This document shows positions 574 to 17,374 of a DNA stretch of 27,150 bases, one piece after another. The notes beneath the pieces were generated by a model, which worked only from the letters and a program-made list of their open reading frames with translations, did not search any database and was not told the DNA's origin. A program made the translations under genes and the position numbers. The stretch is from Candidatus Nanoarchaeia archaeon (GTDB taxonomy: Archaea; Nanobdellota; Nanobdellia; Woesearchaeales; CG1-02-33-12): assembly GCA_028711925.1 (NCBI GenBank), contig JAQTRH010000001.1, forward strand, positions 1-27,150. Reading direction: 5' to 3'. How positions within the stretch are numbered: position 1 is the stretch's first letter; each line of letters opens with the position of its first letter.

Positions 574-1626
574 ATGGAAACACGAGACCTATTAAAACAG
601 TATAAAGACAAGGTTAACTCAAAAATTAATGATTTTTTTGATTCTGAAATAAAAAACTGCCAGAATAAAGATGAAAAAATCATCAACCTTATTGATAATC
701 TAAAAGAGTTTAATCTTAGAGGGGGAAAGAGAATAAGGGCAATTCTTGCCTTGGTTTCTTATGAGTTATTTGATGGAAAAGATTTTAATTCTATGCTCGA
801 TATTGCTGTTTCAGTTGAGTTGATGCAGTCATTCTTTCTTATCCATGATGATATCATTGACAATGACAGTTTCAGAAGAGGGGGCCCAACATTCCACAAA
901 ATTTATGAGAACAGCAATGAAAATCTTGGACAAAGACAATCAGAGGGAATAGCAATAGTTGCAGGAGACATTCTTGAGTCATTAAGCAAAAAAATGATTT
1001 TACAATCATGCTTTAATGAACAAATTAAAATAAAGATTCTTGAAAAATTCAATGAAATCATAGAAAATACCTGTTATGGGGAATTTCTGGACATCTTATC
1101 AGCAAAACAACAAAACATGGATGAAGAGGATATAATCAAAATCCATAAGTTTAAGACAGCTAAATACACAATTGAGGGCCCTTTGCAACTTGGGGCCATA
1201 ACAGCTGGCGCTGATGATAAGCAGCTTAAAATATTAAGCGATTATGCAATTCCCCTTGGAATAGCATTTCAAATAAAAGATGATATAATGGGTCTTTTTG
1301 GGGACAATGAAAAGATTGGAAAGCCGGCTGGCTCTGATGTCAGAGAGGGAAAAATTACGCTTTTGATTTTAAAGGCAATTGAAAAATGCTCTGAAGATGA
1401 CAAAAACCTTATAAAAAGTTGCCTTGGGAATGAAGATATAACTGAAGATGAGCTTTCAAAATTAAGAAAAATAATAGTGAAAACAGGCTCCTTAGACTAT
1501 TCTGAAAAGCTTTCTGAGAAGTTAATATTTCAAGCAAAAGATGCATTGAAAAAATCAAGCTTAAGCGAACAATCAAAACATCTTCTTTTTGAAATCGCGG
1601 ATTTAATTCTTAAAAGGGATTGCTAG
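574..1626 (+). CDS. idsA: Short-chain trans-polyprenyl diphosphate synthase (FPP/GGPP synthase)
   Basis: GGKRIR, FARM IHDDIIDNDSFRRG, GDIL, KTAKYT, SARM FQIKDDIMG, GSDVREGKITL. Confidence 0.93.
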   Translation: METRDLLKQYKDKVNSKINDFFDSEIKNCQNKDEKIINLIDNLKEFNLRGGKRIRAILALVSYELFDGKDFNSMLDIAVSVELMQSFFLIHDDIIDNDSFRRGGPTFHKIYENSNENLGQRQSEGIAIVAGDILESLSKKMILQSCFNEQIKIKILEKFNEIIENTCYGEFLDILSAKQQNMDEEDIIKIHKFKTAKYTIEGPLQLGAITAGADDKQLKILSDYAIPLGIAFQIKDDIMGLFGDNEKIGKPAGSDVREGKITLLILKAIEKCSEDDKNLIKSCLGNEDITEDELSKLRKIIVKTGSLDYSEKLSEKLIFQAKDALKKSSLSEQSKHLLFEIADLILKRDC

Positions 1627-1628
1627 AA

Positions 1629-2669
1629 ATGAAAACAAAAAAAACAAGGCTTATCAAGGTTGGAAATGTAAACATAGGAGGCAATTCTGAAATAACAATA
1701 CAATCAATGTGCAACACCAAAACAAAAGACACAGAACAAACAATAAATCAGATAAAAGAACTTGAAAAAGCTGGATGCGATATAGTGAGGGTTGCTGTGG
1801 AGGATATGGATGATGCGCTTGCATTGAAAAAGATAAAGGAAAACATAAATATCCCTTTGGTTGCAGATATACATTTTGATTACAAACTTGCTTTGGAATC
1901 AGCTAAGTATGCTGATAAATTAAGAATAAACCCTGGAAATATTGGCTCAAAAGATAAAGTAAAAATGGTTGTTAATGCAGCAAAAGAGCGCTCTGTTCCA
2001 ATAAGAATCGGTGTTAATCTTGGCTCTATTGAAAAAGAATTCAAGGAAAAATTTGGATTAACAAGCAAGGCAATGGTCGAGTCTGCAATGAAGCATATAA
2101 AGATTCTTGAATATCTTGATTTTTATGATATCATTGTTTCCTTAAAGGCATCTGACATAAAAAGAACTGTTGATGCTTACAGGATGATATCTGAAAAGAT
2201 TGATTATCCTTTGCATCTTGGAATAACAGAAGCAGGAACTGCTTACTCAGGCACAATAAAATCATCTATTGGAATTGGCTCTTTATTATTAGATGGAATT
2301 GGAGACACAATAAGAGTATCACTTACATCAAATCCTGTTGATGAGGTTAGAGCAGGAATTGAGATATTGAAATCCTTGGAATTAAGAAACGGCCCAATAA
2401 TAATATCCTGCCCTGGATGCGGAAGGACAAAGATTAATCTAGAAAAAATCACAAAAGATGTTGAAAATTCTGTTTGTCATTTAAAAAAGCCATTAAAGAT
2501 AGCTGTGATGGGCTGCGAAGTTAATGGTCCTGGCGAGGCCTCTGAAGCAGATATTGGGATTGCAGGAGCAACTGATTGCGCTGTTTTGTTTAAGAAAGGC
2601 AAATTCATCAGAAAAATTGAAAAAAGCAGCATCACAGAATGTTTGCTTAAAGAAATAGAAAAGTTGTGA
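1629..2669 (+). CDS. ispG: (E)-4-hydroxy-3-methylbut-2-enyl diphosphate synthase IspG (short two-domain form)
   Basis: IQSMCNT, GCDIVRVAV, PLVADIHF, RINPGN, IRIGVNLGS, YPLHLGITEAG, GIGDTIRVSLT; Fe-S motifs CPGCGRT and GCEVNGPGEA. ATG at 1629 preferred over TTG at 1620. Confidence 0.97.
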   Translation: MKTKKTRLIKVGNVNIGGNSEITIQSMCNTKTKDTEQTINQIKELEKAGCDIVRVAVEDMDDALALKKIKENINIPLVADIHFDYKLALESAKYADKLRINPGNIGSKDKVKMVVNAAKERSVPIRIGVNLGSIEKEFKEKFGLTSKAMVESAMKHIKILEYLDFYDIIVSLKASDIKRTVDAYRMISEKIDYPLHLGITEAGTAYSGTIKSSIGIGSLLLDGIGDTIRVSLTSNPVDEVRAGIEILKSLELRNGPIIISCPGCGRTKINLEKITKDVENSVCHLKKPLKIAVMGCEVNGPGEASEADIGIAGATDCAVLFKKGKFIRKIEKSSITECLLKEIEKL

Positions 2670-3481
2670 AAATGAAGGTTATATGCGCTGAAAACATGGG
2701 ATTCTGTTCAGGGGTTAAAAGAGCTGTTGATATGGCTTTAAAGCAGAAAGATGCTTTTGTCCTTGGCCAGCTTATACACAATCCACAAGTGGTTGAAATG
2801 CTTGACAAGAAAGGAATAAAGGAAATAAGCTCAGTTGATGATATTGAAAAGGGAAGTTTGATTATAACGGCGCATGGAACAACAAAATCAAATGTTGAAA
2901 AAGCTAAGATAAAAGGTTTAAAAATTATAGACACAACTTGCCCCCTTGTTAAAAAAGTGCAGGACCTTGCAAAAGAGTTCAGCAGTAAAGGTTATGATAT
3001 CATTCTTTTTGGGGATAAAGGGCATTCTGAGGTAAAGGGTATTGTAAGCAATGCAGAAAATATCATTGTTATTTCAAGCAAAGAAGACGCAAAAAATGTT
3101 TTTGTTAAAAAGGCATGCCTATTATCGCAAACAACTCAGTCCATTGAAAAATTTAATGAAATTTCCAAGGTTCTTAAAAGTAATGTAAATGAATTAAAAA
3201 TAATAAATACTATATGCAATGCCACAAAGAAAAGGCAGGATTCTGCAATGAACATAGCAAAGAAGGTTGATATAATGATTGTTATTGGCGGCTATAACAG
3301 CGCGAACACAAAAAGATTAAATGAAATATGCAGCAAAATAACAGAAACTAAACACATTGAAACAACCAGGGAAATAAAAAAAGAATGGTTTCAAGGAAAA
3401 AAATCAGTTGGAATAACAGCAGGAGCGTCAACGCCTGATTTTGTTATAAAAGAAATTAAGAAAAAGATAGAAAGCCTTTAA
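2666..3481 (+). CDS. ispH: 4-hydroxy-3-methylbut-2-enyl diphosphate reductase IspH
   Basis: GFCSGVKRA, IHNPQVV, AHG, DTTCPLV, GHSEV, TICNATKKRQ, SANTKRL, GITAGASTP. GTGA overlap with the ispG stop; alternative ATG at 2672. Confidence 0.97.
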   Translation: MKMKVICAENMGFCSGVKRAVDMALKQKDAFVLGQLIHNPQVVEMLDKKGIKEISSVDDIEKGSLIITAHGTTKSNVEKAKIKGLKIIDTTCPLVKKVQDLAKEFSSKGYDIILFGDKGHSEVKGIVSNAENIIVISSKEDAKNVFVKKACLLSQTTQSIEKFNEISKVLKSNVNELKIINTICNATKKRQDSAMNIAKKVDIMIVIGGYNSANTKRLNEICSKITETKHIETTREIKKEWFQGKKSVGITAGASTPDFVIKEIKKKIESL

Positions 3482-3482
3482 T

Positions 3483-4181
3483 TTATTTTCCGAAGCGCCT
3501 TTCTCTTTTTTTGTATTCTTCAATAACATCTATTAAATCTTGTTTTTCAAATTCCGGCCACATCTTTTCAATAAAGAACCATTCAGAATAAATCGACTGC
3601 CATGTAAGGAAATTGCTTGTTCTTTTATCCCCTCCTGTCCTTATTATCAAATCAGGCTCGCTGCCAAGATCAAGGTTTTCCAATATAATCTTTTCATTTA
3701 TCTCTTCAGGATTAAGTTTGTTTTCTTTTATTTTCTCAGCAATCCTTTTCACAGCATCAACAATTTCTTCCCTTCCGCCGTAGGCAAGGGCAATGTTTAT
3801 CTTGTAATTATCATAATTTTTAGTCTTATCCATTATTTTATGAATTTCATCATTTATATAATCAGAAAAAAGATTATATCTTCCAATAAAATTAATTTTT
3901 ATTTTGTATTTGTCAATATCTTTATTTTCCATTAATTCCTTGAAAGATTCATCAAATATTTTCATAAGGTAATCAAATTCCTTTTTTGGCCTGTTAAAAT
4001 TCTGCATTGAAAAGCAGTATAATGTAAGCTCTTTTATTTTAAGCTCTCTGCACCAAACAAGAAGGTCTTTTAGCTTTTTAGAGCCGTATTCATGCCCTTT
4101 CCAGGGATTAAGATTAAGTTTTTTGGCAAACCGCCTGTTGCCGTCAAGAATAATTCCAATGTGGTTAGGTATTATGCTCAT
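3483..4181 (-). CDS. uppS: cis-prenyltransferase (undecaprenyl/polyprenyl diphosphate synthase)
   Basis: IILDGNRR, FSMQNFNR, NIALAYGGREEI, DLIIRTGGDKRTSNFL, WPEF, RRFGK. Tail-to-tail with ispH, 1-bp gap. Confidence 0.96.
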   Translation of the reverse strand: MSIIPNHIGIILDGNRRFAKKLNLNPWKGHEYGSKKLKDLLVWCRELKIKELTLYCFSMQNFNRPKKEFDYLMKIFDESFKELMENKDIDKYKIKINFIGRYNLFSDYINDEIHKIMDKTKNYDNYKINIALAYGGREEIVDAVKRIAEKIKENKLNPEEINEKIILENLDLGSEPDLIIRTGGDKRTSNFLTWQSIYSEWFFIEKMWPEFEKQDLIDVIEEYKKRERRFGK

Positions 4182-4223: not shown

Positions 4224-6284
4224 TTAAGGCATTAGAAGTCTATCTATACTACTTATCAATGTTTGTACTTTGTTTATACCTTGGTTGTTTTCAAGTATGT
4301 AATACTTATTCTTAAGTACAACAAGTTCGTTTTCCATTATATACTCAAGTCTTTTATAATCGTTTTTATTCATCCATTTACCTTCTATACAAGAAACCTC
4401 TTCATAAAGATTATTAAAATAACTGTCCAAAACGCCTAATTCATATTCAAATTTTTTATTTGCAATGTAAACGGCATTTTCCTTCTTAGTTTTATACTGA
4501 TTTATAAATGCTTTTAGAGAATCCTCTTTGCTCCAAAAAATATAGTTCTGCAATGAATCTGCCTTATCTTTTAATTTTTTAATTAATCCTAATTCATTTT
4601 TGTATACTTCATTTTTCATTAATCCGTTAACATTTTCTATTATTTCTTCTGCAATATTTGTTTTATTTTTGATGTCTTGCTCAACTCTCTTTATAAGTGA
4701 TTCATATTCCTTTTTACATGTTTTAACATAATCAGACGCCTTTTTTATTTCTGAAATCATGTTATCATCCGAAAAAGAAAAATAAAAATTTTCTAAATCA
4801 GAAAGCTTTAAGTTAATCTGTTCAAGAGATTCGTCTGTTCCCGGGTTATCCCATTTATTATTATAAATAGTCTTTTTCAATTTCAAAAAATCCGACTCGG
4901 CCTTTCTTTTTTTCTCATCGGTTTGATCTATTAAAGTATAACGAAGTTTTTTTATTTTATCTTCAATCTGTTCATTTCCATCAAAAAACACATTATTTTT
5001 AATTATAGAGTAAAGTTCAGTATAATCATTTAATTTATAAATATAGTTGTTAATGTGGTCCACCTTATCCTTTGTAATATTTTCAAAAATTGCATCATAT
5101 TCGTAAGAAAATTCCTCTATTTCTTTTAGTTTAGTGTCTATATTTTTAAAGGCAAAAAGAAAATTTTCATTTAATATATTGTTTAATTTACTGACCTCTG
5201 TTTTATAAGCATTAACCTCAGTTTTCAGAAGTATTTCATCCATAAATTTATCATAATTATCGAAACATTGCGAATCTATTGAAATTAAATTTAAATAATT
5301 TAATTCTTCATTTTTTATCCCGTTTTGAAAGAGAGAATATGCCCTCCCAGTCAATTTTTCTATATCTTTTATTTTGCCTTCTATGGTTTTCCTTGTATTG
5401 TCAATTGTATCCATATACTTGCTTTTTATTCCTGATATGTTTTCTTTTATCTTTTCGGTATTTTTTGCTTTATCATAAACTCCTAAAGATAAATAGCAAT
5501 TTTCTATTTCATCGCTTTTTAAAATAAACTTTTCAAGTTTTTCTGAAGATGCTATCTTACTAAAACTATTTGATTTTATTATATCAACCAACTTTTCAAG
5601 ATTTTTATCAATTTCTGCCTCCTTGACATTCAATTTTCTGTTTATATAATCCCTCAATGAATGAAGTTCAGCAATTATTAATGAAGAACCCTGCTTGAAA
5701 TTTTTATTGTAAACAAGACCAGAAAACATTTTAATTTCATCATCAATATTGTCAAGTGTTTGGTGGATTATTCCTATTTTTTCTTTAAAATTTTCAAATG
5801 TTAAAGTATCAACAGCATTTTTTCTATCATAAATCTTTGACAGGATTATTTTTTTTTCATTTTCAAACTCTTTTAGCAATTCCTTATTTCTGACGAATTT
5901 CAAAGGAAAATGAACTATTTCGTTTTTTTCAATGTTTAAATCAAAATAATCATCAAATTTTAAATTTAAGTTTATTATTTTCTCTAAATCATAATTATCA
6001 ATGCAGACTTTATCTGCTACTTCTTCAAGTTTTTCATTTTCAGTTGATTGATAGTACATAGATTTCTGAAAATTAATGTCTTGAATTTTTTTAAGATGAT
6101 TGTATGAATATGAAGAAAATCCTATTAAGGATGCAATTATCAGTGCCGTAGCTGATTTCAATACTCTGTGTTTAAATCCTTTTACTGTTTCTTGTTCATT
6201 GCTTATTCTTTCATCAATTATTCTATTTGTATCAATAAAATTCAATTCTGCTTCTTTGATTATTTGTTTGTATTCTTCATTCAT
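4224..6284 (-). CDS. Hypothetical 686-aa protein: one N-proximal TM helix and a long alpha-helical K/E/N-rich region
   Basis: Long ORF; hydrophobic SATALIIASLIGFSSYSY at about residues 44-61; ATGA overlap with the upstream gene. No family recognised. Confidence 0.8.
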   Translation of the reverse strand: MNEEYKQIIKEAELNFIDTNRIIDERISNEQETVKGFKHRVLKSATALIIASLIGFSSYSYNHLKKIQDINFQKSMYYQSTENEKLEEVADKVCIDNYDLEKIINLNLKFDDYFDLNIEKNEIVHFPLKFVRNKELLKEFENEKKIILSKIYDRKNAVDTLTFENFKEKIGIIHQTLDNIDDEIKMFSGLVYNKNFKQGSSLIIAELHSLRDYINRKLNVKEAEIDKNLEKLVDIIKSNSFSKIASSEKLEKFILKSDEIENCYLSLGVYDKAKNTEKIKENISGIKSKYMDTIDNTRKTIEGKIKDIEKLTGRAYSLFQNGIKNEELNYLNLISIDSQCFDNYDKFMDEILLKTEVNAYKTEVSKLNNILNENFLFAFKNIDTKLKEIEEFSYEYDAIFENITKDKVDHINNYIYKLNDYTELYSIIKNNVFFDGNEQIEDKIKKLRYTLIDQTDEKKRKAESDFLKLKKTIYNNKWDNPGTDESLEQINLKLSDLENFYFSFSDDNMISEIKKASDYVKTCKKEYESLIKRVEQDIKNKTNIAEEIIENVNGLMKNEVYKNELGLIKKLKDKADSLQNYIFWSKEDSLKAFINQYKTKKENAVYIANKKFEYELGVLDSYFNNLYEEVSCIEGKWMNKNDYKRLEYIMENELVVLKNKYYILENNQGINKVQTLISSIDRLLMP

Positions 6285-6712
6285 TTTTCAAGAATTTGTT
6301 TTATCTTTTTGAATTTATTGTAATAATCAGAAAATTTTTCCTCATTAATTCGAAATTCATTTAATCTTTTTAATGAATTTTTATAGCCTTGATATTTTTC
6401 TTCTTTTAAAAAAAAATCTTTTATTGAATTGCTATTCTCATTTAAAATATGAATTGCACTTGAAACTTTTTCTTGAAAAAGCTTTTCAGTTTTACCTTTT
6501 TTTAAGTTATATTCTTTTAACAAGTCATTGTTTTCACTATAATTAGAAACACAATAATCCAAAAGGATTTTTTTTACATCATCAAATAGAGATATATCAT
6601 CATCAGAAATATTTTCAAAAACAGATAATTCAAGGAGTTGGTGGTTATAGTCAATCTTTTGGATCTTGTTTTGTATCTTATTTTTTTCTCTTTGAATTAT
6701 TTCTTCTTCCAT
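6281..6712 (-). CDS. Hypothetical 143-aa helical protein
   Basis: ORF packed in the operon (12-nt gap upstream, ATGA overlap downstream). Confidence 0.75.
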   Translation of the reverse strand: MEEEIIQREKNKIQNKIQKIDYNHQLLELSVFENISDDDISLFDDVKKILLDYCVSNYSENNDLLKEYNLKKGKTEKLFQEKVSSAIHILNENSNSIKDFFLKEEKYQGYKNSLKRLNEFRINEEKFSDYYNKFKKIKQILEK

Positions 6713-6724
6713 TTTAAAAACCTT

Positions 6725-7813
6725 TTAACTGTAAAATATTCTGTTAAATTCAGATTCAATTTCAGGCGTAAGGTTTTTTATTGAATTTGAAAAATTTTGG
6801 TCAATCCTCAAAGCTAAACTGTTATTTATCCTATACTGAAAACCTATTTTGTAAGATTCTAATTTTCCTTTTCCTATATTATTTAAAAATTCCATGCCGT
6901 ATTTTTCTGCGAATTTTCGAATTTTGTTTTGTCTCAAAATCTCATTTTTTGTATTTCCCTGTGTTTCATTTGATGCATACAAAAACTCCCAGAGATTAGG
7001 ATTTGCATTATTTTTTTCCATTATACTCCATAAACTATCCCCTCTCTTAAGAAAATAATCCTCTTGTATTTCCTGTTCTTGATTCAATCGTTGTGCATAG
7101 TACAACTTTTTATCAAACTCAGAAATTGTATTTTTTTCTTCTAAAAGATAAGAATAAAAATTTTTATCTCTATTCCCGCTTGCTATAACATAATAACTAT
7201 TTTTTGGATTATCATTTTCATTTAACTCAATTTTATCCTCAATCGTCTGTTCAAGTCTTTTACTTGGATTGATCTGGTCTGCATTTTCTTTTAAATCATT
7301 TCCATATCCGAAACCAACAAAAAAAGATAAAGCGCCAATAAGAGTGTATCTTACCATGCTTTTTATATTTTTTTTAAAAAAATCTTTTGTTTTATTGTAA
7401 TCCTTGGTAATAACTGCGCCTAAATATTGTTTTGGTTTTTTATACAACAAAGAAACATTTTGTATCTTGTTTTTTATTTTATTTTTAATATGTTCATCTT
7501 GTTTTACTAATCCATAATTAAAATTTTTTCTCTTTTTACTTTTTCTCCATTCAATATTTCTTCCGTTTTGATGATATTCCCTAAGTACTCTGTATAAGGT
7601 GGATACACTGAAATTGCTTTTTTTGCTGTCATCTCTTCCTTCGTTTAGTTTGTTGCATATTTCATTAACTCTTACATCATTGTTGTTGTAAATACTAATT
7701 ACTTTTTCTTTGTCATGATAACCTATTTTTCTTCCATATTTGAAACCTTTTTTTTTAGGTTCTGCATTTCCATTGCTGATTATATAGTCTATTGTTTTTT
7801 TGTCTTTCATCAT
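6725..7813 (-). CDS. Membrane protein with N-terminal HTH-like region, one TM helix and C-terminal LysM-like motif
   Basis: DKEKVISIY...VNEICNKL...FSVSTLYRVLREY (HTH-like); YTLIGALSFFVGFGYG (TM); YFLKRGDSLWSIMEK...LWEFLYASN (LysM-like). ORF is secure, domain calls are by eye. Confidence 0.65.
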   Translation of the reverse strand: MMKDKKTIDYIISNGNAEPKKKGFKYGRKIGYHDKEKVISIYNNNDVRVNEICNKLNEGRDDSKKSNFSVSTLYRVLREYHQNGRNIEWRKSKKRKNFNYGLVKQDEHIKNKIKNKIQNVSLLYKKPKQYLGAVITKDYNKTKDFFKKNIKSMVRYTLIGALSFFVGFGYGNDLKENADQINPSKRLEQTIEDKIELNENDNPKNSYYVIASGNRDKNFYSYLLEEKNTISEFDKKLYYAQRLNQEQEIQEDYFLKRGDSLWSIMEKNNANPNLWEFLYASNETQGNTKNEILRQNKIRKFAEKYGMEFLNNIGKGKLESYKIGFQYRINNSLALRIDQNFSNSIKNLTPEIESEFNRIFYS

Positions 7814-8892
7814 AAATTAAAAAGAGATTTATTAAATTTCTCATTTGTGTTAATCAGCCTGCGGTCATACACATTGGATATATCATTAAATATTGAATAG
7901 AGGATAGGATTTGAATCTCTATACTGGTTCGCCAGTTCTCTGGGATTTTTCTCAACACCAATTGCTTTTCTTATCCCTTTACCTACTATGTTCTGCACAT
8001 TGTAAGTGTAGTTTTCTATTTGGTTCACACTGTTGAACAAGGAATCTATAGCATAACTCTGCTTGTTTAGTGGATCATAAATCGGTTTTGTTATCCTGAT
8101 AAAATCAAGTATTCTCTTTGTTTTATCTATAAGTTCCTCAGAAGTAAAGGTATAAATTGATATTATCTTCTCTATTTTTTCAAGTTTTGGATCAATTTTT
8201 AGGTAATCAATAAAATTTTCTTCATTTAAGTGTAAATTGTGCACTAGCCTATCTCTTTTTCTCTCTGAGTCTTCAATTAGATTTTTTATCCTAAAATATC
8301 CATTTTCAGAAGCCTTCATTGAACCAAACTTTCTCTTTGCTAGATTATAATCTCTTATAACTTTCTCAAGTTTTTCATTTAGATAATTATGTACAGTAAT
8401 TCTTTTATCCATATCGGATGTCTTTCTTCTTCTATTATTAACCAGGCCTTTATACCTCTTGTTTAACTCAGTTGTCATTGAAAGAAGGGTTAAATTTATC
8501 TCTGAAAGATGGTTCTCTCCCAAAGTCATTATTTCATCAATTGTGTAATTTTTTCCAAAGACATTAATTTTAAAAAAATCAATTACACCATAACCTGCTT
8601 TATGAAATACTGACTTTCCTCTTATTAATTGTCTTTTGAATGCATAATTTATATTCTTAAGTTCTTTTGCTTGTCCAATTATATAAACCAAGTTTCCATC
8701 TGAATTCTTGGAAACTAAATTATTGTTTGCACTAATGGCTTGTCTTTTTTCATTTAGTAATTCTTCCATTTTAGATGTTTCGTTTGGTTCTGAATAAGCT
8801 TTTTGTTCATTTTCATTGTCCTCAACTAATTTCCATATATCTGATTCAGCTTCCTGCCTTCCATTATCATTTTCCTCTGAACTTGTTTTCAT
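7810..8892 (-). CDS. Hypothetical 360-aa soluble helical/coiled-coil protein
   Basis: ORF with SD GGAGGT 7 nt upstream; no hydrophobic segment; acidic low-complexity N-terminus. Confidence 0.8.
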   Translation of the reverse strand: MKTSSEENDNGRQEAESDIWKLVEDNENEQKAYSEPNETSKMEELLNEKRQAISANNNLVSKNSDGNLVYIIGQAKELKNINYAFKRQLIRGKSVFHKAGYGVIDFFKINVFGKNYTIDEIMTLGENHLSEINLTLLSMTTELNKRYKGLVNNRRRKTSDMDKRITVHNYLNEKLEKVIRDYNLAKRKFGSMKASENGYFRIKNLIEDSERKRDRLVHNLHLNEENFIDYLKIDPKLEKIEKIISIYTFTSEELIDKTKRILDFIRITKPIYDPLNKQSYAIDSLFNSVNQIENYTYNVQNIVGKGIRKAIGVEKNPRELANQYRDSNPILYSIFNDISNVYDRRLINTNEKFNKSLFNL

Positions 8893-8905: not shown

Positions 8906-9124
8906 TCATTTATAATCAAGATTATTATACATTATTTTTTCAATTCCTTTTTGTTTTTCTATACTCTTGGTTACCCTTTCATCAATGGTTTGATAATAAG
9001 CGTGGTTTGCATAATTTGAAATCTTAATCTCAGATTCAATAGTTTTGTTTTCACATCCTCCACCCATGTAATAACCAAGACTAAAACAGATAAAGCCAAA
9101 GAGAAATTTTCTAATAAGACTCAT
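8906..9124 (-). CDS. Small exported or membrane-anchored protein (72 aa)
   Basis: SD GGGAGG 8 nt upstream; RK followed by hydrophobic FLFGFICFSLGYYM, then GGGC. Confidence 0.75.
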   Translation of the reverse strand: MSLIRKFLFGFICFSLGYYMGGGCENKTIESEIKISNYANHAYYQTIDERVTKSIEKQKGIEKIMYNNLDYK

Positions 9125-9629
9125 TTGAATTGCCTCCCTTGTCTAAATAATTATTAATTTTTTTTTCTAGGTTTTTGTAAAAGCTGTCAACCCTGGGTTT
9201 TTGCTTATCAAGAAAATCAAGAATTTTGCTGTACTTATTTTTTAGCTCGTCCTTTATTAAAGGTTCTATTATCTTTATCTTTCTTTCATAAGGCATTTCA
9301 TTGATTCTTTCTTCAATAGTTTCATCATTCATCATGTTTATTATTTCTTTTCCATAACCATTTTCAATTCCGATCTTGCTTATTTTTATGATGTAATCCG
9401 GATAATAATTTGGATTTTTGTTTATTATTTCAAGACTGTGCTCTAAAAGCTCACTGATATCATTACCTGTTTTTCCATAAGCTGGACATTCTTCTTCTGC
9501 CACATAAATCACCTTTTCTTGTATTATTGGCTTTGCATAATTTTTGTCTGTATTTTCTGCAAAAAAACAACCTGTTAAGCCAATTGCTCCTGCCAAAAAA
9601 AATGTTGATATTGTCGTTTTGATACCCAT
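9111..9629 (-). CDS. Putative lipoprotein (172 aa)
   Basis: MGIKTTISTFFLAGAIG-LTGC: signal peptide ending in a lipobox-conforming LTGC. First gene of the operon. Confidence 0.7.
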   Translation of the reverse strand: MGIKTTISTFFLAGAIGLTGCFFAENTDKNYAKPIIQEKVIYVAEEECPAYGKTGNDISELLEHSLEIINKNPNYYPDYIIKISKIGIENGYGKEIINMMNDETIEERINEMPYERKIKIIEPLIKDELKNKYSKILDFLDKQKPRVDSFYKNLEKKINNYLDKGGNSNESY

Positions 9630-9652
9630 ATTAATTAGGTTATAGCAATAAG

Positions 9653-9660
9653 TTTTAATA
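9653..9660 (-). promoter_or_regulatory. Candidate TATA box for the six-gene accessory operon
   Basis: Minus strand TATTAAAA, 23 nt before the ATG at 9629. Confidence 0.45.
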
Positions 9661-9739
9661 AGAATTGCTGAAAAAAAACTTGATAATTTCCGCTTTTTTT
9701 GAATTTAATTGATATTTTATTGAAAGTTATTCAGAAAGA

Positions 9740-9747
9740 TATAAAAA
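9740..9747 (+). promoter_or_regulatory. BRE/TATA for the DUF357 gene
   Basis: CAGAAAGA-TATAAAAA, 23 nt before the ATG at 9771. Confidence 0.55.
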
Positions 9748-9770
9748 CTAGTTTGTTCAATTAATAGAAT

Positions 9771-10058
9771 ATGAGAACAATAACTGAAGAAAAGCTGAAT
9801 CATTATTTTGATATTACAGGCCAGGCCTTAAAAAAAGCCAAGCAAAACATAACAAAAGACTTATCCAAAAAAGGTTTTGCTAATGACTTTCTTGATATGG
9901 CCCAGAGGTATTATGATGATGCAAACTACTTCAAGGAAAAAAATGATTATGTTAACGCCTTTGCAGCGTTAAGCTACGCACACGGATGGTTAGATGCAGG
10001 CGCAAGAATTAAATTATTCAACGTGAATGATTCTAGACTATTCACTGTGGATGATTAA
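9771..10058 (+). CDS. DUF357 family protein
   Basis: DFLDMAQRYYDDANYF...DYVNAFAALSYAHGWLDAGARIKLF matches the archaeal DUF357 pattern. Confidence 0.9.
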   Translation: MRTITEEKLNHYFDITGQALKKAKQNITKDLSKKGFANDFLDMAQRYYDDANYFKEKNDYVNAFAALSYAHGWLDAGARIKLFNVNDSRLFTVDD

Positions 10059-10620
10059 TAACCATAGATATAAGATGAATGATTAATGCAATAAACACTG
10101 ATAAAGCAATAGTTGCGATAAAAAAATTCTGAAAAAAAGACTGCTGATAAACCTGGATCATCAGAGAACTGGGTAAAAATTGCCAGTTGCCCTGCGGAAA
10201 AAAAATTAAATGAAATAATTTAAAAAACGTGTTAAAAAATAGTGATGTGATAATACATAAAAAACCAATAAAGAAAATTATTAAAGTGGATTTCTTAATG
10301 TGATTAATTTTTATTTTTCTTTTGTAAACCAAAACAAAAAATGCAATTGAAAAAATAATAAAAATAAACTCCTCAAGCAGGATAAGATTTCTTACATCTT
10401 TCATGTGAGATTTTTCATCATCACTGAAATCAACATCCAGCTCTGAACTGAGCCCAGTTATATATTTAGTGACATTCTTATTAATTTCAAGAAAATAAGG
10501 GTTATCATTGTATTCTTCTATGAGTTTTTTATGAAAGTGATTACAATTCAAAAGAATATTGAATGAAAGAAGTATCAAAAAAAACGCAATCAAAAGCCCT
10601 ATTAAAAAATCTTTTTTCAT
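10042..10620 (-). CDS. DUF1461/TIGR01906 membrane protein, Lit (lipoprotein intramolecular transacylase)-like
   Basis: Four hydrophobic segments; FSDDEKSHMKDVRNL (H72) and FFKLFHLIFFPQGNWQF (H137). TAATG overlap with the cbf5 stop. Confidence 0.8.
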   Translation of the reverse strand: MKKDFLIGLLIAFFLILLSFNILLNCNHFHKKLIEEYNDNPYFLEINKNVTKYITGLSSELDVDFSDDEKSHMKDVRNLILLEEFIFIIFSIAFFVLVYKRKIKINHIKKSTLIIFFIGFLCIITSLFFNTFFKLFHLIFFPQGNWQFLPSSLMIQVYQQSFFQNFFIATIALSVFIALIIHLISMVINHPQ

Positions 10621-14250: not shown

Positions 14251-15099
14251 CTATTTTAGTATATCATAGAATGAATCAAAAATTGGCTTATCTGTGGTAA
14301 CTAAGTAAAAATCAACGCCAATTTCATCGCAAATTTTTGCTATCTTTGATATATGGTTTTCTAGCATCTGTTTGTAATTAACCTTTAATCTCGGGCTTAT
14401 GTCTGTTCTCATGATATCCTTTGTCTCAGAATCTTTTAGTTTAAAATCACCATTCAATGATAAATCCCTTTCAATGGGATCAAGCAACATTATTATTTTC
14501 ATATCGTGGTCTCCAAGCATAAAAAGAGAATTCTCTATATCTTCTGTATTAAAAAGAAAATCTGATATTATGACCACCATTGACCTTGAGTCAATCATTT
14601 TTTTGTATTTAATTATTGCATCCTTAAAATTAGAATGGCCTGTTAGTTTTATATTATTCAAGTGGTCAATCATATCAGCCAGATGTTTCATTCCCCTCCA
14701 TGACTTAAATGTTTCAAGGTTTTCAGCAAATGTTGAGAACTGAAACCTTTCATTTTCCTTCATGCAGATAAAGGCCATTCCAACCCCGAGCATTGAAGCA
14801 TAATCAAATTTAGTTGTTGTTTTTCCATAATTCATGCTTGCGCTGTGGTCAACGATTATATGTGTTGTAAGGCTTTTGTCTTCCTCATATCTCTTTATGT
14901 AAAGGTCGTCGGTTCTTGCAAATATCCTCCAGTCAATTGACCTAAAATCATCTCCTGGCGTATATATACGGTGGTCTTTTATATTCATTCCTCTTCCGCG
15001 CATCATAGAGCGTCTAGCTCCAGTATAACTTGAGGTAACTCTTTTTCTAATGACTAGGTTAAACCTGGAAAGCTGAGACAAAAACTCGCTTGTTATCAT
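14251..15099 (-). CDS. DUF58 family vWA-like protein
   Basis: DHRIYTPGDDFRSIDWRIFART, LYIKRYEE, IIVDHSASM, VVIISDF; follows moxR with ATGA overlap. Confidence 0.92.
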   Translation of the reverse strand: MITSEFLSQLSRFNLVIRKRVTSSYTGARRSMMRGRGMNIKDHRIYTPGDDFRSIDWRIFARTDDLYIKRYEEDKSLTTHIIVDHSASMNYGKTTTKFDYASMLGVGMAFICMKENERFQFSTFAENLETFKSWRGMKHLADMIDHLNNIKLTGHSNFKDAIIKYKKMIDSRSMVVIISDFLFNTEDIENSLFMLGDHDMKIIMLLDPIERDLSLNGDFKLKDSETKDIMRTDISPRLKVNYKQMLENHISKIAKICDEIGVDFYLVTTDKPIFDSFYDILK

Positions 15100-16028
15100 T
15101 TTACCTTGTTGAGAATTTCCTTTATTGCATCATCTGTCTTCATTCCTTTTCTCTCTGCTTCAAAATTTAAAATTATCCTGTGCCTTAACACTGGATAAGC
15201 CATTGCATCTATGTCTTCCTTGCTTACATATTTTCTTCCTTTTACAATAGCCCTTGCTTTTGACGCCAAAACAAGCCCTATGGATGCTCTTGGTGATGCC
15301 CCATATTCTATAAGGTTAGGGTTCTTCCTTGTTTCTGAAACTATCTTTACTATTCTCCTTTTCAAATCATTTGCAATAGGAACCTGTCTTACTAAAGACT
15401 GCATCCTAATCAAATCAGGTTTGTTGAGGATGGTTTTAACATTCTTCTCAATATTCTGAAATGCGTATTTGTCAACTATTTCCACTTCTTCATCATAGCT
15501 GGGATAGCTTACATTAATCTTAAGCAAAAACCTGTCTGACTGCGCTTCAGGCAAGGGATAAGTTCCTTCCTGCTCTATGGGGTTTTGTGTTGCAAGTACA
15601 AAGAAGGGCTTGTCGAGCTCAAAAGTTTTGTTTCCAACTGTAACTTGCTTCTCCTGCATGGCTTCTAATAATGCAGATTGTGTTTTCGGAGTTGCTCTGT
15701 TTATTTCATCTGCCAATACAATATTAGCGAATATGGGGCCTGGCTGAAACTTAAAGCTTCTTTTTCCAGAAACCTCTTCAATAATATAAGTTCCTGTGAT
15801 GTCAGATGGCATTAAATCGGGCGTATTCTGTATCCTGCTGAACTTAAGGTCCATAAGGTCTGACATTGTTTTTATTGCCAGTGTTTTTGCAAGTCCCGGA
15901 TATCCTTCCAATAATGCATTTGCATCGCAAAGTATTGTAATCAGAATTTGCTCGACAACATCTTTTTGGCCAACAACAACCTTCCCAACCTCTTTGTATA
16001 AATTGTCAAATGTTTCTTTTTTTATCAT
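15096..16028 (-). CDS. moxR: MoxR-family AAA+ ATPase
   Basis: Walker A LEGYPGLAKT, RIQNTPDLMPSDITG, Walker B VLADEINRATPKTQSALLEAMQE, ATQNPIEQEGTYPLPEAQSDRF, GASPRA, LRHRI. ATG at 16028 with SD GAGGTG 6 nt upstream; the track's GTG is part of the SD. Confidence 0.96.
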   Translation of the reverse strand: MIKKETFDNLYKEVGKVVVGQKDVVEQILITILCDANALLEGYPGLAKTLAIKTMSDLMDLKFSRIQNTPDLMPSDITGTYIIEEVSGKRSFKFQPGPIFANIVLADEINRATPKTQSALLEAMQEKQVTVGNKTFELDKPFFVLATQNPIEQEGTYPLPEAQSDRFLLKINVSYPSYDEEVEIVDKYAFQNIEKNVKTILNKPDLIRMQSLVRQVPIANDLKRRIVKIVSETRKNPNLIEYGASPRASIGLVLASKARAIVKGRKYVSKEDIDAMAYPVLRHRIILNFEAERKGMKTDDAIKEILNKVK

Positions 16029-16048
16029 TTTATGCACCTCTTATATTA

Positions 16049-16837
16049 TCAATTTTCTGCCAACTTCAAAAAATAATTTTTTACTATTTCCTGTTTTTCT
16101 TTTTGTATATTTTCCTGATAAACCTCAGCTGATTCAACAAAAACTTCATCAGGAAATAACTGGTCAAAATCTCTTCTTTCAGGTTCTTTAACCTTATCAA
16201 GGTTTATTTCATACCCTGCTGGTTTTATTATCAGGTCAAGTTTTTCATCTCCCATCTGAGCAATGCTTGGGTCGTCAAAAAGGCTCTCGCCTATCCCAGA
16301 CCCAGCAATCTTCTGCAGACCTTGAATCCCTCCTTCTGTGTTATTCCCACCTATCCCATATATAAAATCTATAGTGTCTATTGCTGTGTCTTTAAGGTTA
16401 AATGATAGGTCAAATTGTGATGTGAAAACCAATAAAAAACAAAGAACTACAGCAACCAATATCTTATATGATATTTCTTTTTCATTTATGAAAGATGAAA
16501 CATTAACATATTTCATATCATTCATTATGTCTGATTTCAAGCTATCGACAATGGGGTTCTCCATTTTTATGTTGTCTCTTGCTGTCCTAAGCCTTTCATT
16601 TAAAAAAGGATATTTTCTTTCAACTGTAAGCAAATGTTTTTCAGTTATCCCTTTTATTGAAAATAAAAAAAAGTAAAGTAATGCAGGAACCAATGCATAC
16701 TCTTTATAAAAGTTAAATAATGACAAAACTATATACGAAGAAAGGAATATCAAGACTGATATAAGAAAAACATTAAACATTATTATGTTGTTAAATGTAA
16801 AGTTGATTTCCCTTAAAACTTTTTTGAATTTTTTCAT
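16049..16837 (-). CDS. Hypothetical membrane protein of the MoxR/vWA operon
   Basis: About three hydrophobic segments and an acidic C-terminal region. Start at 16837 (MKKFKK) avoids a 44-nt overlap with the upstream gene. Confidence 0.75.
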   Translation of the reverse strand: MKKFKKVLREINFTFNNIIMFNVFLISVLIFLSSYIVLSLFNFYKEYALVPALLYFFLFSIKGITEKHLLTVERKYPFLNERLRTARDNIKMENPIVDSLKSDIMNDMKYVNVSSFINEKEISYKILVAVVLCFLLVFTSQFDLSFNLKDTAIDTIDFIYGIGGNNTEGGIQGLQKIAGSGIGESLFDDPSIAQMGDEKLDLIIKPAGYEINLDKVKEPERRDFDQLFPDEVFVESAEVYQENIQKEKQEIVKNYFLKLAEN

Positions 16838-16859
16838 TTTGTATCTTTTGATAGATCTT

Positions 16860-17348
16860 CTATTCTTCAGAAGTGCAATTGCATAATTGCAGTTCACGTT
16901 CAAGATCTATTATTTCTTTATTTGCATCTTCAAGTTGATATTGTGTTGATAACAAATCAGCTTGTGCTGCAGCAAGTTTTTTTTGTGTTGTGGCAAGCTC
17001 TGCCTTTTTCTGATTTAATTCAGCTGTTTTTGATGACAACTGACTTTGAAGGTTTGATTTTTCTGCCTCAACTTTATCTTTTTCTTCTTTTAGGCCGCTA
17101 TACTGAGTGCTTAATTCCTCTTCCCTTTCTTCTTTTACCAGGAGCTGGTAGCTTGTCTGGTTAAGCCTGCTTCTCTCGTTTATTAATGTAGAAGAAAGAT
17201 TATCCATTTTATCTATAGTTTCTTTATAATCAAGATAAAGGCCTTTAAATGTTGTCTGGTAGTAAATGCTTACTCCGACAATGCATATAATGCTGGCTGC
17301 CAATAATAAAAAAAGCCCAAAATTAACATTTCTTTTCATATATGCCAT
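16860..17348 (-). CDS. N-terminally anchored coiled-coil protein
   Basis: TM FGLFLLLAASIICIVGVSIYY followed by a heptad-rich region (LKEEKDKVEAEKSNLQSQLSSKTAELNQKKAELATTQKKLAAAQ). Confidence 0.85.
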   Translation of the reverse strand: MAYMKRNVNFGLFLLLAASIICIVGVSIYYQTTFKGLYLDYKETIDKMDNLSSTLINERSRLNQTSYQLLVKEEREEELSTQYSGLKEEKDKVEAEKSNLQSQLSSKTAELNQKKAELATTQKKLAAAQADLLSTQYQLEDANKEIIDLERELQLCNCTSEE

Positions 17349-17374
17349 GATATCATCCTGTTATTGATTATTAT

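What the first reader, a model, noticed from the sequence alone, without database searches (positions are those of the whole stretch)
6725..7813. HTH-TM-LysM architecture: candidate glycan-sensing transmembrane regulator in an archaeon
Seen: HTH-like segment ending SVSTLYRVLREY (about 7574-7714), a basic linker, one TM, and YFLKRGDSLWSIMEK...LWEFLYASN (about 6968-7057), which fits the LysM start consensus Y-x-V/L-K-x-G-D-S/T-L-W-x-I. Established: LysM binds GlcNAc polymers such as peptidoglycan and chitin; most archaea have no peptidoglycan; DNA-binding domain-TM-sensor is the ToxR/CadC or RodZ layout. Inference: a one-component device coupling contact with a bacterial wall or host glycan to DNA binding. 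I know of no described archaeal example.
Basis: partly seen in the sequence, partly recalled or inferred. Interest (0 to 1): 0.75.

Follow-up and report, generated by a model that had tools for sequence, protein, structure and literature searches.

The report
Membrane HTH protein with split LysM
A tiny symbiont-type archaeon (Woesearchaeota) encodes a membrane protein with a DNA-binding-type domain predicted inside the cell and an unusual, interrupted LysM-type domain predicted outside, so it may link the cell surface to gene control, but neither sugar binding nor DNA binding has been tested.

Summary
The ORF (6725-7813, minus strand, 362 aa) is a real gene. Its small family was found only in Woesearchaeota.

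- a basic winged-HTH (res 30-93)
- one transmembrane helix (153-171), predicted N-in
- a C-terminal ectodomain (250-362) that begins as a LysM

**LysM evidence.** The domain fails Pfam's LysM cut-off (11.6 vs 20.9 bits). However, phmmer reaches true LysM proteins (E down to 2e-6) and a profile comparison gives 97% probability. A confident AF2 model (pLDDT 86) matches almost only LysM structures. The fold is a split LysM: beta-alpha-alpha, a ~50-residue insertion, the closing strand, then two extra helices. The nearest structures are Kbp and phage/injection-system baseplate LysMs, which are not known for glycan binding.

**Context.** It is gene four of a six-gene operon conserved in at least 12 loci. 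The last gene of that operon also encodes a TM plus LysM-like protein. Some relatives fuse an intact JAB peptidase to the N-terminus and add a ThiF-type E1. One relative lacks the HTH.

**Novelty.** Transmembrane HTH regulators are already known to be common in archaea, so this is a new variant, not a new kind. Glycan and DNA binding remain untested. The scan had noted this operon before, on this same DNA.

The parts
6725..7813 (-). Whole gene (362 aa, P0001): HTH - basic linker - TM - stalk - split LysM-like domain
   Evidence: ORF; homologues; synteny
7535..7726 (-). Residues 30-93: three-helix winged-HTH with a ~12-residue insert between helix 2 and the recognition helix (SVSTLYRVLREY), followed by a basic wing/tail WRKSKKRK
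   Evidence: AF2 local pLDDT about 80. VIA second look: LmrR Z 6.4, Pax6 6.2, Tc3 5.8, Fur family. PHROG 125 E 2.5e-4. An insert-free tandem copy in P0009/P0010 shows the canonical HTH spacing.
7358..7534 (-). Residues 94-152: strongly basic, low-confidence helical linker on the cytoplasmic side
   Evidence: Composition: 40 K+R vs 16 D+E in residues 1-155; AF2 pLDDT about 45
7301..7357 (-). Residues 153-171: single transmembrane helix MVRYTLIGALSFFVGFGYG with invariant S163 and G167
   Evidence: Only one hydrophobic peak in every family member, with K/R-rich N flank; invariant columns
7067..7300 (-). Residues 172-249: variable, disordered extracytoplasmic stalk
   Evidence: pLDDT 30-38; 6-36% identity across the family; deleted in P0008
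6965..7066 (-). Residues 250-283: LysM beta1-alpha1-alpha2 (DYFLKRGDSLWSIMEK..NLWEFLYASNE)
   Evidence: phmmer to true LysM proteins; hhalign 97.3%; AF2 E251-254, H261-269, H272-281
6815..6964 (-). Residues 284-333: conserved ~50-residue insertion (helix 289-305, GKGxLEPYxxGxQYKI) in place of the LysM alpha2-beta2 loop
   Evidence: AF2 pLDDT above 90 through most of it, lower at its end (about 74); invariant Q295, K304, L310, G314, G316, Y321, Q326, I329
6728..6814 (-). Residues 334-362: closing LysM strand (ALRI, 334-337) and two extra C-terminal helices ending in the near-invariant TPEIESEFNRIFY
   Evidence: AF2 domain model. LysM structures align across model residues 6 to about 100, i.e. 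beta1 through this strand.
4224..6284 (-). Last operon gene g686: short cytoplasmic N-terminus, TM (res 41-59, nt 6108-6164), full-length LysM-like domain (res 77-127, nt 5904-6056), then a long helical ectodomain
   Evidence: hhalign vs LysM set: 92%, E 5.7e-7, 51 columns. Pfam LysM hits 2 of 9 orthologues, best E 0.0015. Atlas shape neighbours are all LysM proteins but with low TM-scores.
6281..6712 (-). g143: equals the C-terminal ~140 aa of a 517-aa protein in expanded relatives
   Evidence: blastp; tblastn
7810..8892 (-). g360: predicted soluble helical protein; its stop overlaps the target's start (ATGA)
   Evidence: ORF overlap; orthologues; weak TelA-like features 0.87
8906..9124 (-). 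g72: small, highly conserved protein with an N-terminal hydrophobic segment ending GYYMGGGC
   Evidence: Alignments
9111..9629 (-). g172: first operon gene, signal peptide with lipobox-like L-T-G-C (L-x-A-G-C in relatives)
   Evidence: Alignments; hydrophobic N-terminus
9630..9681 (-). Conserved promoter block with TATA box CTTATTAAAA (9653-9662), flanked in most relatives by two copies of AAATGCT; candidate operator
   Evidence: 11-locus alignment, 81% mean column identity, TATA invariant. The degenerate pattern matches nowhere else in the 0.92-Mb genome.

Best explanation
The gene encodes a bitopic membrane protein of a Woesearchaeota archaeon. A basic winged-HTH domain lies in the cytoplasm. 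A single helix crosses the membrane. A flexible stalk then carries a LysM-derived domain on the cell surface.

The protein is one subunit of a six-gene, lineage-specific envelope operon. That operon also encodes a lipobox protein, a small membrane protein and a second TM-LysM-like protein.

Most likely mechanism (inferred, not shown): the ectodomain engages a surface polymer or partner, and the cytoplasmic HTH converts that state into an output, most simply by binding the operon's own highly conserved promoter. The most plausible ligand is GlcNAc-type glycan such as the peptidoglycan of neighbouring bacteria. This would make it a transmembrane transcription regulator with a LysM-type sensor.

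In relatives the same TM-LysM module carries other cytoplasmic heads: two HTH copies, JAB plus HTH, or JAB alone. That is the pattern of a constant sensor coupled to exchangeable outputs.
For: Architecture and topology:
- AF2 gives two confident domains.
- The N-domain matches only HTH/winged-helix DNA binders. Sequence hints agree.
- There is one TM in every member, with a positive N flank.
- An intact JAMM motif is fused on the HTH side in P0007, P0009 and P0011. A ThiF E1 is encoded next to them. This places the N-terminus in the cytoplasm.

LysM:
- phmmer E 2e-6 to proteins that Pfam confirms as LysM.
- hhalign 97.3%.
- An exhaustive structure comparison gives only 107 chains with Z of 2 or more, and most of the top 30 are LysM. 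Examples: Kbp Z 4.9, Thermus LysM rmsd 2.0, Volvox LysM 49 of 49 residues at rmsd 1.9.
- AFDB and Atlas neighbours are also LysM proteins.

Sensor logic:
- The C-domain is the best conserved part and the only part present in all members.
- The cytoplasmic head varies, and P0011 lacks the HTH.

Plausible ligand: the 0.92-Mb genome encodes three SLT lytic-transglycosylase domains. Woesearchaeota murein transglycosylases are noted in PMC12352652.

Candidate DNA target: a promoter block conserved across 11 loci and unique in the genome.

Precedent: transmembrane HTH regulators are common in archaea (PMC10269533, PMC6396743).
Against: - No experiment or expression data exist. The only sequencing run holding the DNA is a landfill metagenome DNA run.
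- The LysM fails Pfam's threshold.
- Its alpha2-beta2 loop, part of the canonical glycan groove, is replaced by a conserved 50-residue insertion.
- Its closest relatives (Kbp, P2 gpX, T4 gp53-like and injection-system baseplate LysMs) are not established glycan binders.
- All HTH sequence hits are below curated cut-offs.
- One family member has no HTH.
- The HTH of RodZ binds protein, not DNA.
- Promoter conservation could reflect only the BRE/TATA and the 5' leader.
- The operon context suggests a multi-protein complex rather than a simple one-component switch.
Confidence: 0.45

Rival explanations
1. It is a structural subunit of a lineage-specific envelope complex, not a sensor. The LysM-like fold serves as a protein-protein or assembly module, as in phage and contractile-injection baseplates. 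The HTH docks a cytoplasmic partner (RodZ-like) or merely tethers DNA.
For: - Tight six-gene operon with overlapping genes, conserved in at least 12 loci.
- A second TM-LysM-like protein, a lipobox protein and a small membrane protein are in the same operon.
- Best structural matches are baseplate LysM modules and Kbp.
- Invariant small residues S163 and G167 (an SxxxG pattern) in the TM could suit helix packing (the packing role is my inference).
- One member lacks the HTH.
Against: - A complex prediction of the ectodomain with the three other extracytoplasmic operon products gave no verdict, so no interaction is supported.
- The recognition helix and basic wing are strongly conserved and look like DNA binders.
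- Exchangeable cytoplasmic heads fit signalling better than scaffolding.
Confidence: 0.3
2. It is primarily the membrane anchor or substrate adaptor of a ubiquitin-like conjugation module (ThiF E1, JAB peptidase, and possibly the proteins c158 and c428). This genome would keep a reduced remnant whose original partner enzymes were lost.
For: - In L003, L013-L015, L018 and L019 the orthologue is fused to a JAB domain with an intact HxHx8Sx2D motif.
- Those loci carry a ThiF E1 next to it. L003, L013-L015 and L019 also carry c158 and c428, and L013-L015 and L019 a free JAB paralogue.
- The window's genome has no ThiF at all (genome 89% complete).
- g143 is only the C-terminal quarter of the 517-aa protein of the expanded loci.
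Against: - The six-gene core without E1/JAB is itself conserved, under apparent constraint, in several genera (window, L010, L011, L012, L016, L017). It is therefore functional on its own.
- No Ubl or E2 could be recognised.
- The direction of evolution (gain or loss) is not established.
Confidence: 0.12
3. It is a remnant of a virus or mobile element. The evidence would be an AT-rich island, an invertase/transposase-type HTH and a phage-tail-type LysM.
For: - GC of 24-28% against 30-38% in the flanks.
- PHROG DNA-invertase hit.
- Similarity to the gpX/XkdP-type LysM.
Against: - Same chromosomal position beside the cis-prenyltransferase gene (Pfam Prenyltransf) in the window, L002 and L003.
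- No integrase, capsid, terminase or tail genes were found.
- No defence-system matches for the core genes.
- No tRNA or flanking repeats were found.
Confidence: 0.05

Closest known systems
Transmembrane transcription regulators (TTRs; ToxR, CadC, TfoS; archaeal ArnR/ArnR1; survey of Demey et al. 2023, PMC10269533)
   Same: A cytoplasmic DNA-binding-type domain, a single-pass TM (the commonest TTR form, 56%) and an extracytoplasmic domain. The class is already reported in 367 of 404 archaeal species.
   Different: - The HTH is not OmpR-type (ToxR/CadC).
- ArnR has its TMs at the C-terminus and a cytoplasmic sensor (PMC6396743).
- LysM does not occur in the main text of that survey; its supplementary tables were not checked.
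- DNA binding is untested here.
- The gene sits in a six-gene envelope operon.
LysM domain (Pfam PF01476), especially the Kbp/YgaU - P2 gpX - XkdP - baseplate subtype (motif GDTLW.IA...W..IY.AN)
   Same: The beta1-alpha1-alpha2 sequence motif (GDSLW.IM...LWEFLYASN), and a predicted beta-alpha-alpha-beta core that superposes on solved LysMs at rmsd 1.9-2.5 Å.
   Different: - Below Pfam's cut-off.
- A conserved ~50-residue insertion lies between alpha2 and the closing strand, and two extra helices follow it.
- Ligand unknown. Kbp binds K+ and baseplate LysMs are structural (my knowledge, plus the PDB titles).
Membrane-anchored LysM proteins such as B. subtilis YneA, and bacterial HTH-TM-LysM or LysM-TM-SARP proteins noted earlier in this scan (e1-1520910, e1-1990233, e1-907323)
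   Same: N-terminal anchor with a LysM displayed outside. In the scan's bacterial examples this is combined with a cytoplasmic DNA-binding domain.
   Different: Those carry canonical, usually tandem LysMs and other HTH classes (LuxR, SARP). This protein has a single, split LysM in an archaeon. I did not re-test those notes.
RodZ (HTH - TM - periplasmic domain)
   Same: Same three-part layout. It shows that a membrane-tethered HTH can be a protein-binding module.
   Different: No sequence match to the RodZ HTH or to DUF4115. No MreB context.
Prokaryotic E1-JAB ubiquitin-like modules (CBASS Cap2/Cap3, Bil systems; Iyer et al. 2006, PMC1779556)
   Same: Relatives of the operon contain a ThiF E1 that matches PADLOC E1-E2 models (E 3e-18) and JAMM peptidases.
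   Different: - No E2 or Ubl was recognised.
- The JAB is fused to a membrane HTH-LysM protein.
- The window's own genome lacks the module.

Membership tests
LysM (PF01476) | Score at or above Pfam's gathering cut-off (20.9 bits) | tested here: not met
   No hit at E up to 10 in hmmscan. 11.6 bits, model positions 4-17 only, in the whole-genome search.
LysM (PF01476) | Sequence homology to bona fide LysM domains | tested here: met
   phmmer against 1.84 billion representatives hits P0012-P0017 (E 2e-6 to 1e-3) at query residues 241-291. Pfam confirms LysM in the five scanned, P0012-P0016 (E 1e-14 to 5e-68). hhalign gives 97.3% over beta1-alpha2. The LysM set was chosen from the query's own hits, which favours the match.
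LysM (PF01476) | beta-alpha-alpha-beta fold | tested here: met
   Prediction only. The AF2 domain model has pLDDT 85.8 and pTM 0.81. Top structural matches are LysM domains. The fold is interrupted by a 50-residue insertion. Z is at most 5.2, as expected for a core of about 50 residues.
LysM (PF01476) | Binding of GlcNAc-containing glycans | not testable with these tools
   Needs pull-down or ITC. The insertion replaces the alpha2-beta2 loop that lines the groove.
Transmembrane transcription regulators (TTR, Demey 2023) | A recognised DNA-binding domain | tested here: inconclusive
   All Pfam HTH/FUR hits are below cut-off. PHROG 125 gives E 2.5e-4. The predicted fold matches wHTH DNA binders at Z 4.6-6.4.
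Transmembrane transcription regulators (TTR, Demey 2023) | At least one transmembrane region | tested here: met
   One conserved hydrophobic segment per member. No dedicated TM predictor was available.
Transmembrane transcription regulators (TTR, Demey 2023) | Regulates transcription from the membrane | not testable with these tools
   Only a conserved, genome-unique promoter block is available as a candidate target.
ToxR/CadC family | OmpR-type winged-helix (Trans_reg_C) DNA-binding domain | tested here: not met
   No such hit in any family member at E up to 10.
RodZ | RodZ-type Xre HTH plus C-terminal DUF4115 | tested here: not met
   Neither domain was hit. The C-domain is LysM-like.
JAB/JAMM peptidase fusion (relatives only) | HxHx(7-10)Sx2D metal site | tested here: met
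   Present in P0007, P0009 and P0011, with weak Prok-JAB/JAB Pfam hits. The domain is absent from the window's protein.

The most novel reading that the evidence does not exclude
The conserved TM plus split-LysM module is a cell-surface sensor of a host or neighbour glycan (for example bacterial peptidoglycan). Its cytoplasmic output is exchangeable: an HTH that switches the operon in this genome, or a JAB peptidase working with an operon-encoded ThiF E1 in relatives. That would be a ubiquitin-like conjugation pathway wired directly to surface contact in DPANN archaea.
Probability: 0.12. Interest if true: 0.8.

Novelty: new variant of a known kind. Interest (0 to 1): 0.5.

Why it matters
DPANN archaea live attached to or dependent on other cells, and how they sense and hold their partners is largely unknown. 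This uncharacterised operon puts two LysM-type domains on the surface of a Woesearchaeote that also encodes three lytic transglycosylase domains. One of the two LysM domains is tied to a DNA-binding-type head. That gives a concrete, testable candidate for contact sensing of bacterial cell wall.

The split LysM with a conserved 50-residue insertion is also a new structural variant of a very widespread module. The JAB/E1-carrying relatives hint at a link between ubiquitin-like chemistry and the cell envelope.

If the domain binds no glycan, the finding reduces to an ordinary lineage-specific membrane protein family.

Tried and rejected
- **Complex prediction:** Complex prediction of the ectodomain with the mature parts of g172, g72 and g686 gave 'no answer' (score 0.00). 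This is neither support nor evidence against binding.
- **Neighbouring proteins:** Pfam, PHROG and PADLOC scans gave nothing above threshold, except ThiF/E1 in relatives. Profile searches of PDB sequences with the g360, c428 and c158 families found nothing.
- **g360 as a detached JAB domain:** rejected. It has no similarity to the N-terminus of P0007.
- **Ubiquitin-like hit:** the family profile hit RUB1 at residues 222-261 with E 1.8. I treat this as chance, because that stretch is variable and absent in P0008.
- **Full-length model searches:** the exhaustive structure search was dominated by the long low-confidence helix and was uninformative. Foldseek E-values against PDB were all above 0.7 for both models. 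I therefore rely on the make-up of the hit lists and the VIA Z-scores, not on Foldseek significance.
- **ESM Atlas:** the full-length protein gave only low TM-scores.
- **Intergenic repeats:** repeats and palindromes in 9600-9800 were no better than expected for AT-rich DNA.
- **Second promoter-like match:** a match at 22790-22813 (3 mismatches) lies inside coding sequence and was dismissed.
- **RNA features and expression:** no tRNA or Rfam element in the window. No RNA run holds the locus, so expression could not be checked and read laying was not used.
- **Own cell wall:** the genome has a single Mur-ligase-domain hit. That is not enough to infer a murein-like wall of its own.
Full report
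**The gene and its host.**
The window carries archaeal informational genes (L31e, S19e, Cbf5-type pseudouridine synthase, diphthamide synthase). It belongs to a 0.92-Mb assembly of 108 contigs, 89% complete. Close relatives are deposited as Candidatus Woesearchaeota. The only public run holding the DNA is a landfill metagenome.

The ORF 6725-7813 on the minus strand is open for 362 codons, in a stretch of only 24-28% GC. It is a real gene:
- The 5.8-billion-protein index holds three homologues of 43-54% identity.
- An exhaustive HMMER pass over 1.84 billion cluster representatives finds seven family representatives.
- The GTDB species genomes give ten loci. Six are labelled Woesearchaeota and four Methanosarcinales, a label I take to be wrong.
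- In a sample of 401 genomes of the phylum, the family was found in three, all of the window's own family. Two further weak matches (E about 5e-4) covered only the TM/linker region.

**N-terminal domain.**
Residues 1-155 are strongly basic (40 K+R, 16 D+E). Pfam gives only sub-threshold hits, but they are coherent:
- FUR in 3 of 4 close members (best E 0.0087).
- HTH_38, HTH_28, HTH_32, HTH_23 and F-93 winged helix.
- HTH_28 at E 3.8e-4 and HTH_10 at E 0.0036 in P0010.
- PHROG 125 (DNA invertase, C-terminal HTH region) matches residues 15-120 at E 2.5e-4.
- A family profile hits the 105-residue PDB chain 2lvs (annotated only as 'putative uncharacterized protein') at E 0.011, and Fur at E 0.26.

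P0009 and P0010 carry a second, upstream copy of the module. That copy lacks the ~12-residue insert between helix 2 and the recognition helix, which reveals canonical HTH spacing.

AF2 models residues 30-93 at pLDDT about 80 as three helices. A second-look structural alignment places this domain on winged-helix/HTH DNA binders only: LmrR Z 6.4, Pax6 paired domain 6.2, small terminase HTH 6.0, Tc3 transposase 5.8, Nur/PerR/Fur 4.6-5.8, AhrC, Lrp, MecI, RosR, DeoR. These Z values are modest, as expected for 65 residues. The fold assignment is likely, but DNA binding is inferred.

**Membrane segment and topology.**
Each of ten family members has exactly one outstanding hydrophobic segment, at the same position. 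The 17-residue Kyte-Doolittle mean is 1.39-1.91, and the next best segment scores 1.24 or lower. Each has 4-6 Lys/Arg in the 15 residues before it, against 1-4 after it. The window's own protein is at the weak end (1.42).

S163 and G167 are invariant among the four closest members.

Three relatives (P0007, P0009, P0011) carry an N-terminal JAB domain with an intact HxHx8Sx2D site on the same side as the HTH. They lie next to a ThiF-type E1. Such enzymes work in the cytoplasm. The topology is therefore N-in, C-out, and the HTH and the C-domain lie on opposite sides of the membrane.

Residues 172-249 are disordered in the model (pLDDT 30-38). They are the least conserved part and are deleted in P0008. 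This fits a stalk.

**C-terminal domain.**
Pfam's LysM model does not reach its threshold. hmmscan gives no hit, and the whole-genome search gives 11.6 bits against 20.9, covering model positions 4-17. That site is nevertheless the best LysM-like site in the genome.

Other evidence for homology:
- The exhaustive phmmer search reaches proteins aligned to query residues 241-291 with library-wide E-values of 2e-6 to 1e-3. Pfam confirms these as LysM proteins (E 1e-14 to 5e-68).
- They are of the subtype with the motif GDTLW.IA..YG...W..IY.AN, shared with Kbp/YgaU, P2 gpX and XkdP.
- A profile of the family's C-domain against 17 LysM domains cut from those proteins gives hhalign probability 97.3%, E 2.4e-11. 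The match covers 35 columns only: beta1, alpha1 and alpha2. Loosening the alignment adds only low-confidence columns. Because the LysM set came from the query's own hits, this figure is somewhat favoured.

Structure prediction:
- A domain-only AF2 model (residues 243-362, 12 sequences) is confident (pLDDT 85.8, pTM 0.81).
- Its order of elements, in P0001 numbering, is: strand 251-254, helices 261-269 and 272-281, a long helix 289-305 with further short elements, strand 334-337, then helices 339-346 and 350-360.
- Aligned without prefilter to 48,161 PDB representatives, only 107 chains reach Z 2. Roughly two-thirds of the top thirty are LysM domains or LysM-type baseplate modules:
  - Streptomyces and Algoriphagus injection-system baseplates (Z 5.2 and 4.7)
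  - phiCD508 (5.2)
  - Kbp (4.9, 24% identity)
  - Thermus NlpC/P60 LysM (4.3, rmsd 2.0)
  - Volvox chitinase LysM (4.2, all 49 residues at rmsd 1.9)
  - also SleL, pyocin R2, intimin, Mg1LysM, Ecp6, LYK3, gpX, CEBiP, AtlA and MltD
- These alignments run from model residue 6-9 to about 100, taking about 50 residues. So the LysM core is closed by the distant strand 334-337.
- Foldseek against PDB gives the same kinds of hits without significance (best E 0.75). AFDB clusters (best E 0.027, mostly 'LysM domain-containing') and the ESM Atlas (TM by query up to 0.55) agree.

I conclude that this is a LysM-derived domain with a conserved ~50-residue insertion in place of the alpha2-beta2 loop, plus a two-helix C-terminal extension. 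That loop helps form the glycan groove in canonical LysMs (my knowledge). The nearest relatives are a potassium sensor and structural baseplate modules. Glycan binding is therefore possible but cannot be assumed.

**Genomic context.**
The gene is the fourth of six tightly packed minus-strand genes: g172, g72, g360, the target, g143 and g686. Two junctions are ATGA overlaps. The same six genes in the same order occur in L002/L010, again beside the cis-prenyltransferase gene (Pfam Prenyltransf). They also occur in L011 and L012, and in L016 and L017, where the g143 counterpart is longer.
- g172 has a signal peptide ending in a lipobox-like LTGC (LxAGC in relatives).
- g72 is a very conserved small protein with an N-terminal hydrophobic segment ending in GGGC.
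- g686 has a TM at residues 41-59 followed by a full-length LysM-like domain at 77-127 (YYQ..E.E.L..IA.KVC....L.KII.FN......I..GEIIHFP). hhalign against the LysM set gives 92%, E 5.7e-7 over 51 columns. Pfam LysM hits two of nine orthologues at E 0.0015. Its Atlas shape neighbours are all LysM proteins, at low TM-score.

The operon therefore displays two LysM-type domains.

In L003, L013-L015 and L019 the cluster is expanded. It gains c158 (two copies in three loci), c428, a ThiF E1, a JAB domain fused to the target's N-terminus, and a longer form of g143. L013-L015 and L019 also carry a free JAB paralogue. The short contig L018 shows the E1 and the JAB fusion. The E1 matches PADLOC E1-E2 models at E 3e-18.

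The window's genome has no ThiF gene.

P0011 has JAB, TM and the LysM-like domain but no detectable HTH. So the invariant core of the family is TM plus split LysM. The cytoplasmic head is modular.

**Promoter.**
The ~52 nt upstream of g172 are strikingly conserved across 11 loci whose proteins are as little as 46% identical. They include an invariant CTTATTAAAA, which I take to be the TATA box (window 9653-9662). In most loci two AAATGCT words flank it. A degenerate version of this block matches nowhere else in the genome. It is a candidate operator for the HTH, but the conservation may reflect only core promoter and leader.

**What it most likely does.**
Shown by computation: the gene is real and conserved, it has one TM, it has a predicted wHTH and a predicted split LysM, and it belongs to a conserved operon.

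Inferred:
- N-in/C-out topology.
- The ectodomain engages a polymer or partner at the surface.
- The HTH converts this into transcriptional control, probably of its own operon.

A constant ectodomain with exchangeable cytoplasmic heads (one or two HTH copies, JAB plus HTH, or JAB alone) is the usual signature of a sensor with alternative outputs. It is my main reason to rank the transducer reading (0.45) above a purely structural role (0.30).

A peptidoglycan ligand is plausible because this genome encodes three SLT lytic-transglycosylase domains. Murein transglycosylases of Woesearchaeota have been noted before (PMC12352652, citing Vigneron et al. 2022).

The other rivals are a relic adaptor of an E1/JAB conjugation system (0.12) and a mobile-element remnant (0.05).

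**Comparison with what is known.**
As a class, membrane-anchored HTH regulators are not new in archaea. Demey et al. counted 1,384 archaeal TTRs in 367 of 404 species, most of them single-pass (PMC10269533). ArnR/ArnR1 of Sulfolobus have been purified and shown to bind promoters (PMC6396743).

The protein is not a ToxR/CadC or RodZ family member, because the defining domains were tested and are absent. It fails Pfam's LysM threshold but meets the homology and predicted-fold criteria.

Literature searches for LysM with DPANN, with Woesearchaeota or with membrane-bound transcription factors found no description of this architecture in archaea. Earlier notes of this scan report bacterial HTH-TM-LysM and LysM-TM-SARP proteins and another Woesearchaeota LysM membrane protein. 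I did not re-test those.

**Verdict.**
- Observation: confirmed.
- Interpretation: partly supported.
- Novelty: a new variant of known kinds (transmembrane HTH regulator; LysM surface module).
- Interest: moderate, raised by the split LysM, the second LysM protein in the operon and the JAB/E1-bearing relatives. It is lowered by the complete lack of functional data and by the known abundance of archaeal TTRs.

Noticed in passing
window 4224-6284 (-), residues 77-127 = nt 5904-6056: The operon's last and largest protein (686 aa) has a TM followed by a complete, divergent LysM-like domain and a long helical ectodomain. hhalign 92% against LysM. Pfam LysM E 0.0015 in 2 of 9 orthologues.
   Followed up: partly
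L003 6751-12283; L013, L014, L015, L019 (and, on a short contig, L018) equivalents: Relatives of the operon insert a ThiF-type E1, two unknown conserved proteins (c158, c428) and, in L013-L015 and L019, a free JAB paralogue. They also fuse an intact JAB peptidase to the N-terminus of the HTH-TM-LysM protein. This looks like a ubiquitin-like conjugation module embedded in an envelope operon of DPANN archaea. No Ubl or E2 was recognised.
   Followed up: partly
window 9630-9681 (-), TATA at 9653-9662: The promoter and leader of the operon are about 81% identical across 11 loci although the proteins have diverged to 46% identity. Most loci have two AAATGCT words flanking an invariant CTTATTAAAA. 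The block is unique in the genome.
   Followed up: partly
window 9111-9629 (-) and 8906-9124 (-): g172 has a signal peptide with a lipobox-like L-T-G-C (L-x-A-G-C in relatives). g72 ends its hydrophobic segment in GGGC. A Lit-like (PF07314) gene lies 400 nt away at 10042-10620.
   Followed up: no
window 574-4181: Polyprenyl synthase, IspG (GcpE) and IspH (LytB) of the bacterial MEP pathway, plus a cis-prenyltransferase (Pfam Prenyltransf), in an archaeal genome. The same neighbourhood is kept in L002, and L003 keeps only the cis-prenyltransferase.
   Followed up: no
G000 contigs C83:909-1217, C32:4016-4393, C32:6345-6701 (L023-L025): There are three SLT lytic-transglycosylase domains in a 0.92-Mb archaeal genome, in open frames of 809, 606 and 200 aa. 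They suggest the organism acts on bacterial peptidoglycan.
   Followed up: no
window 14251-21537 (-): A MoxR AAA+ / DUF58 / vWA / BatA-like cluster with DUF7502, DUF7407 and DUF7408 proteins.
   Followed up: no
ESM Atlas rows 1-2: The closest shapes to the split-LysM domain (TM by query 0.54-0.55, 83 of 120 residues aligned) are Bacteroidota proteins that combine an HU DNA-binding domain with a LysM-named region. This may be a bacterial parallel of 'DNA-binding head plus extended LysM'. No identifiers were given, so it could not be pursued.
   Followed up: no
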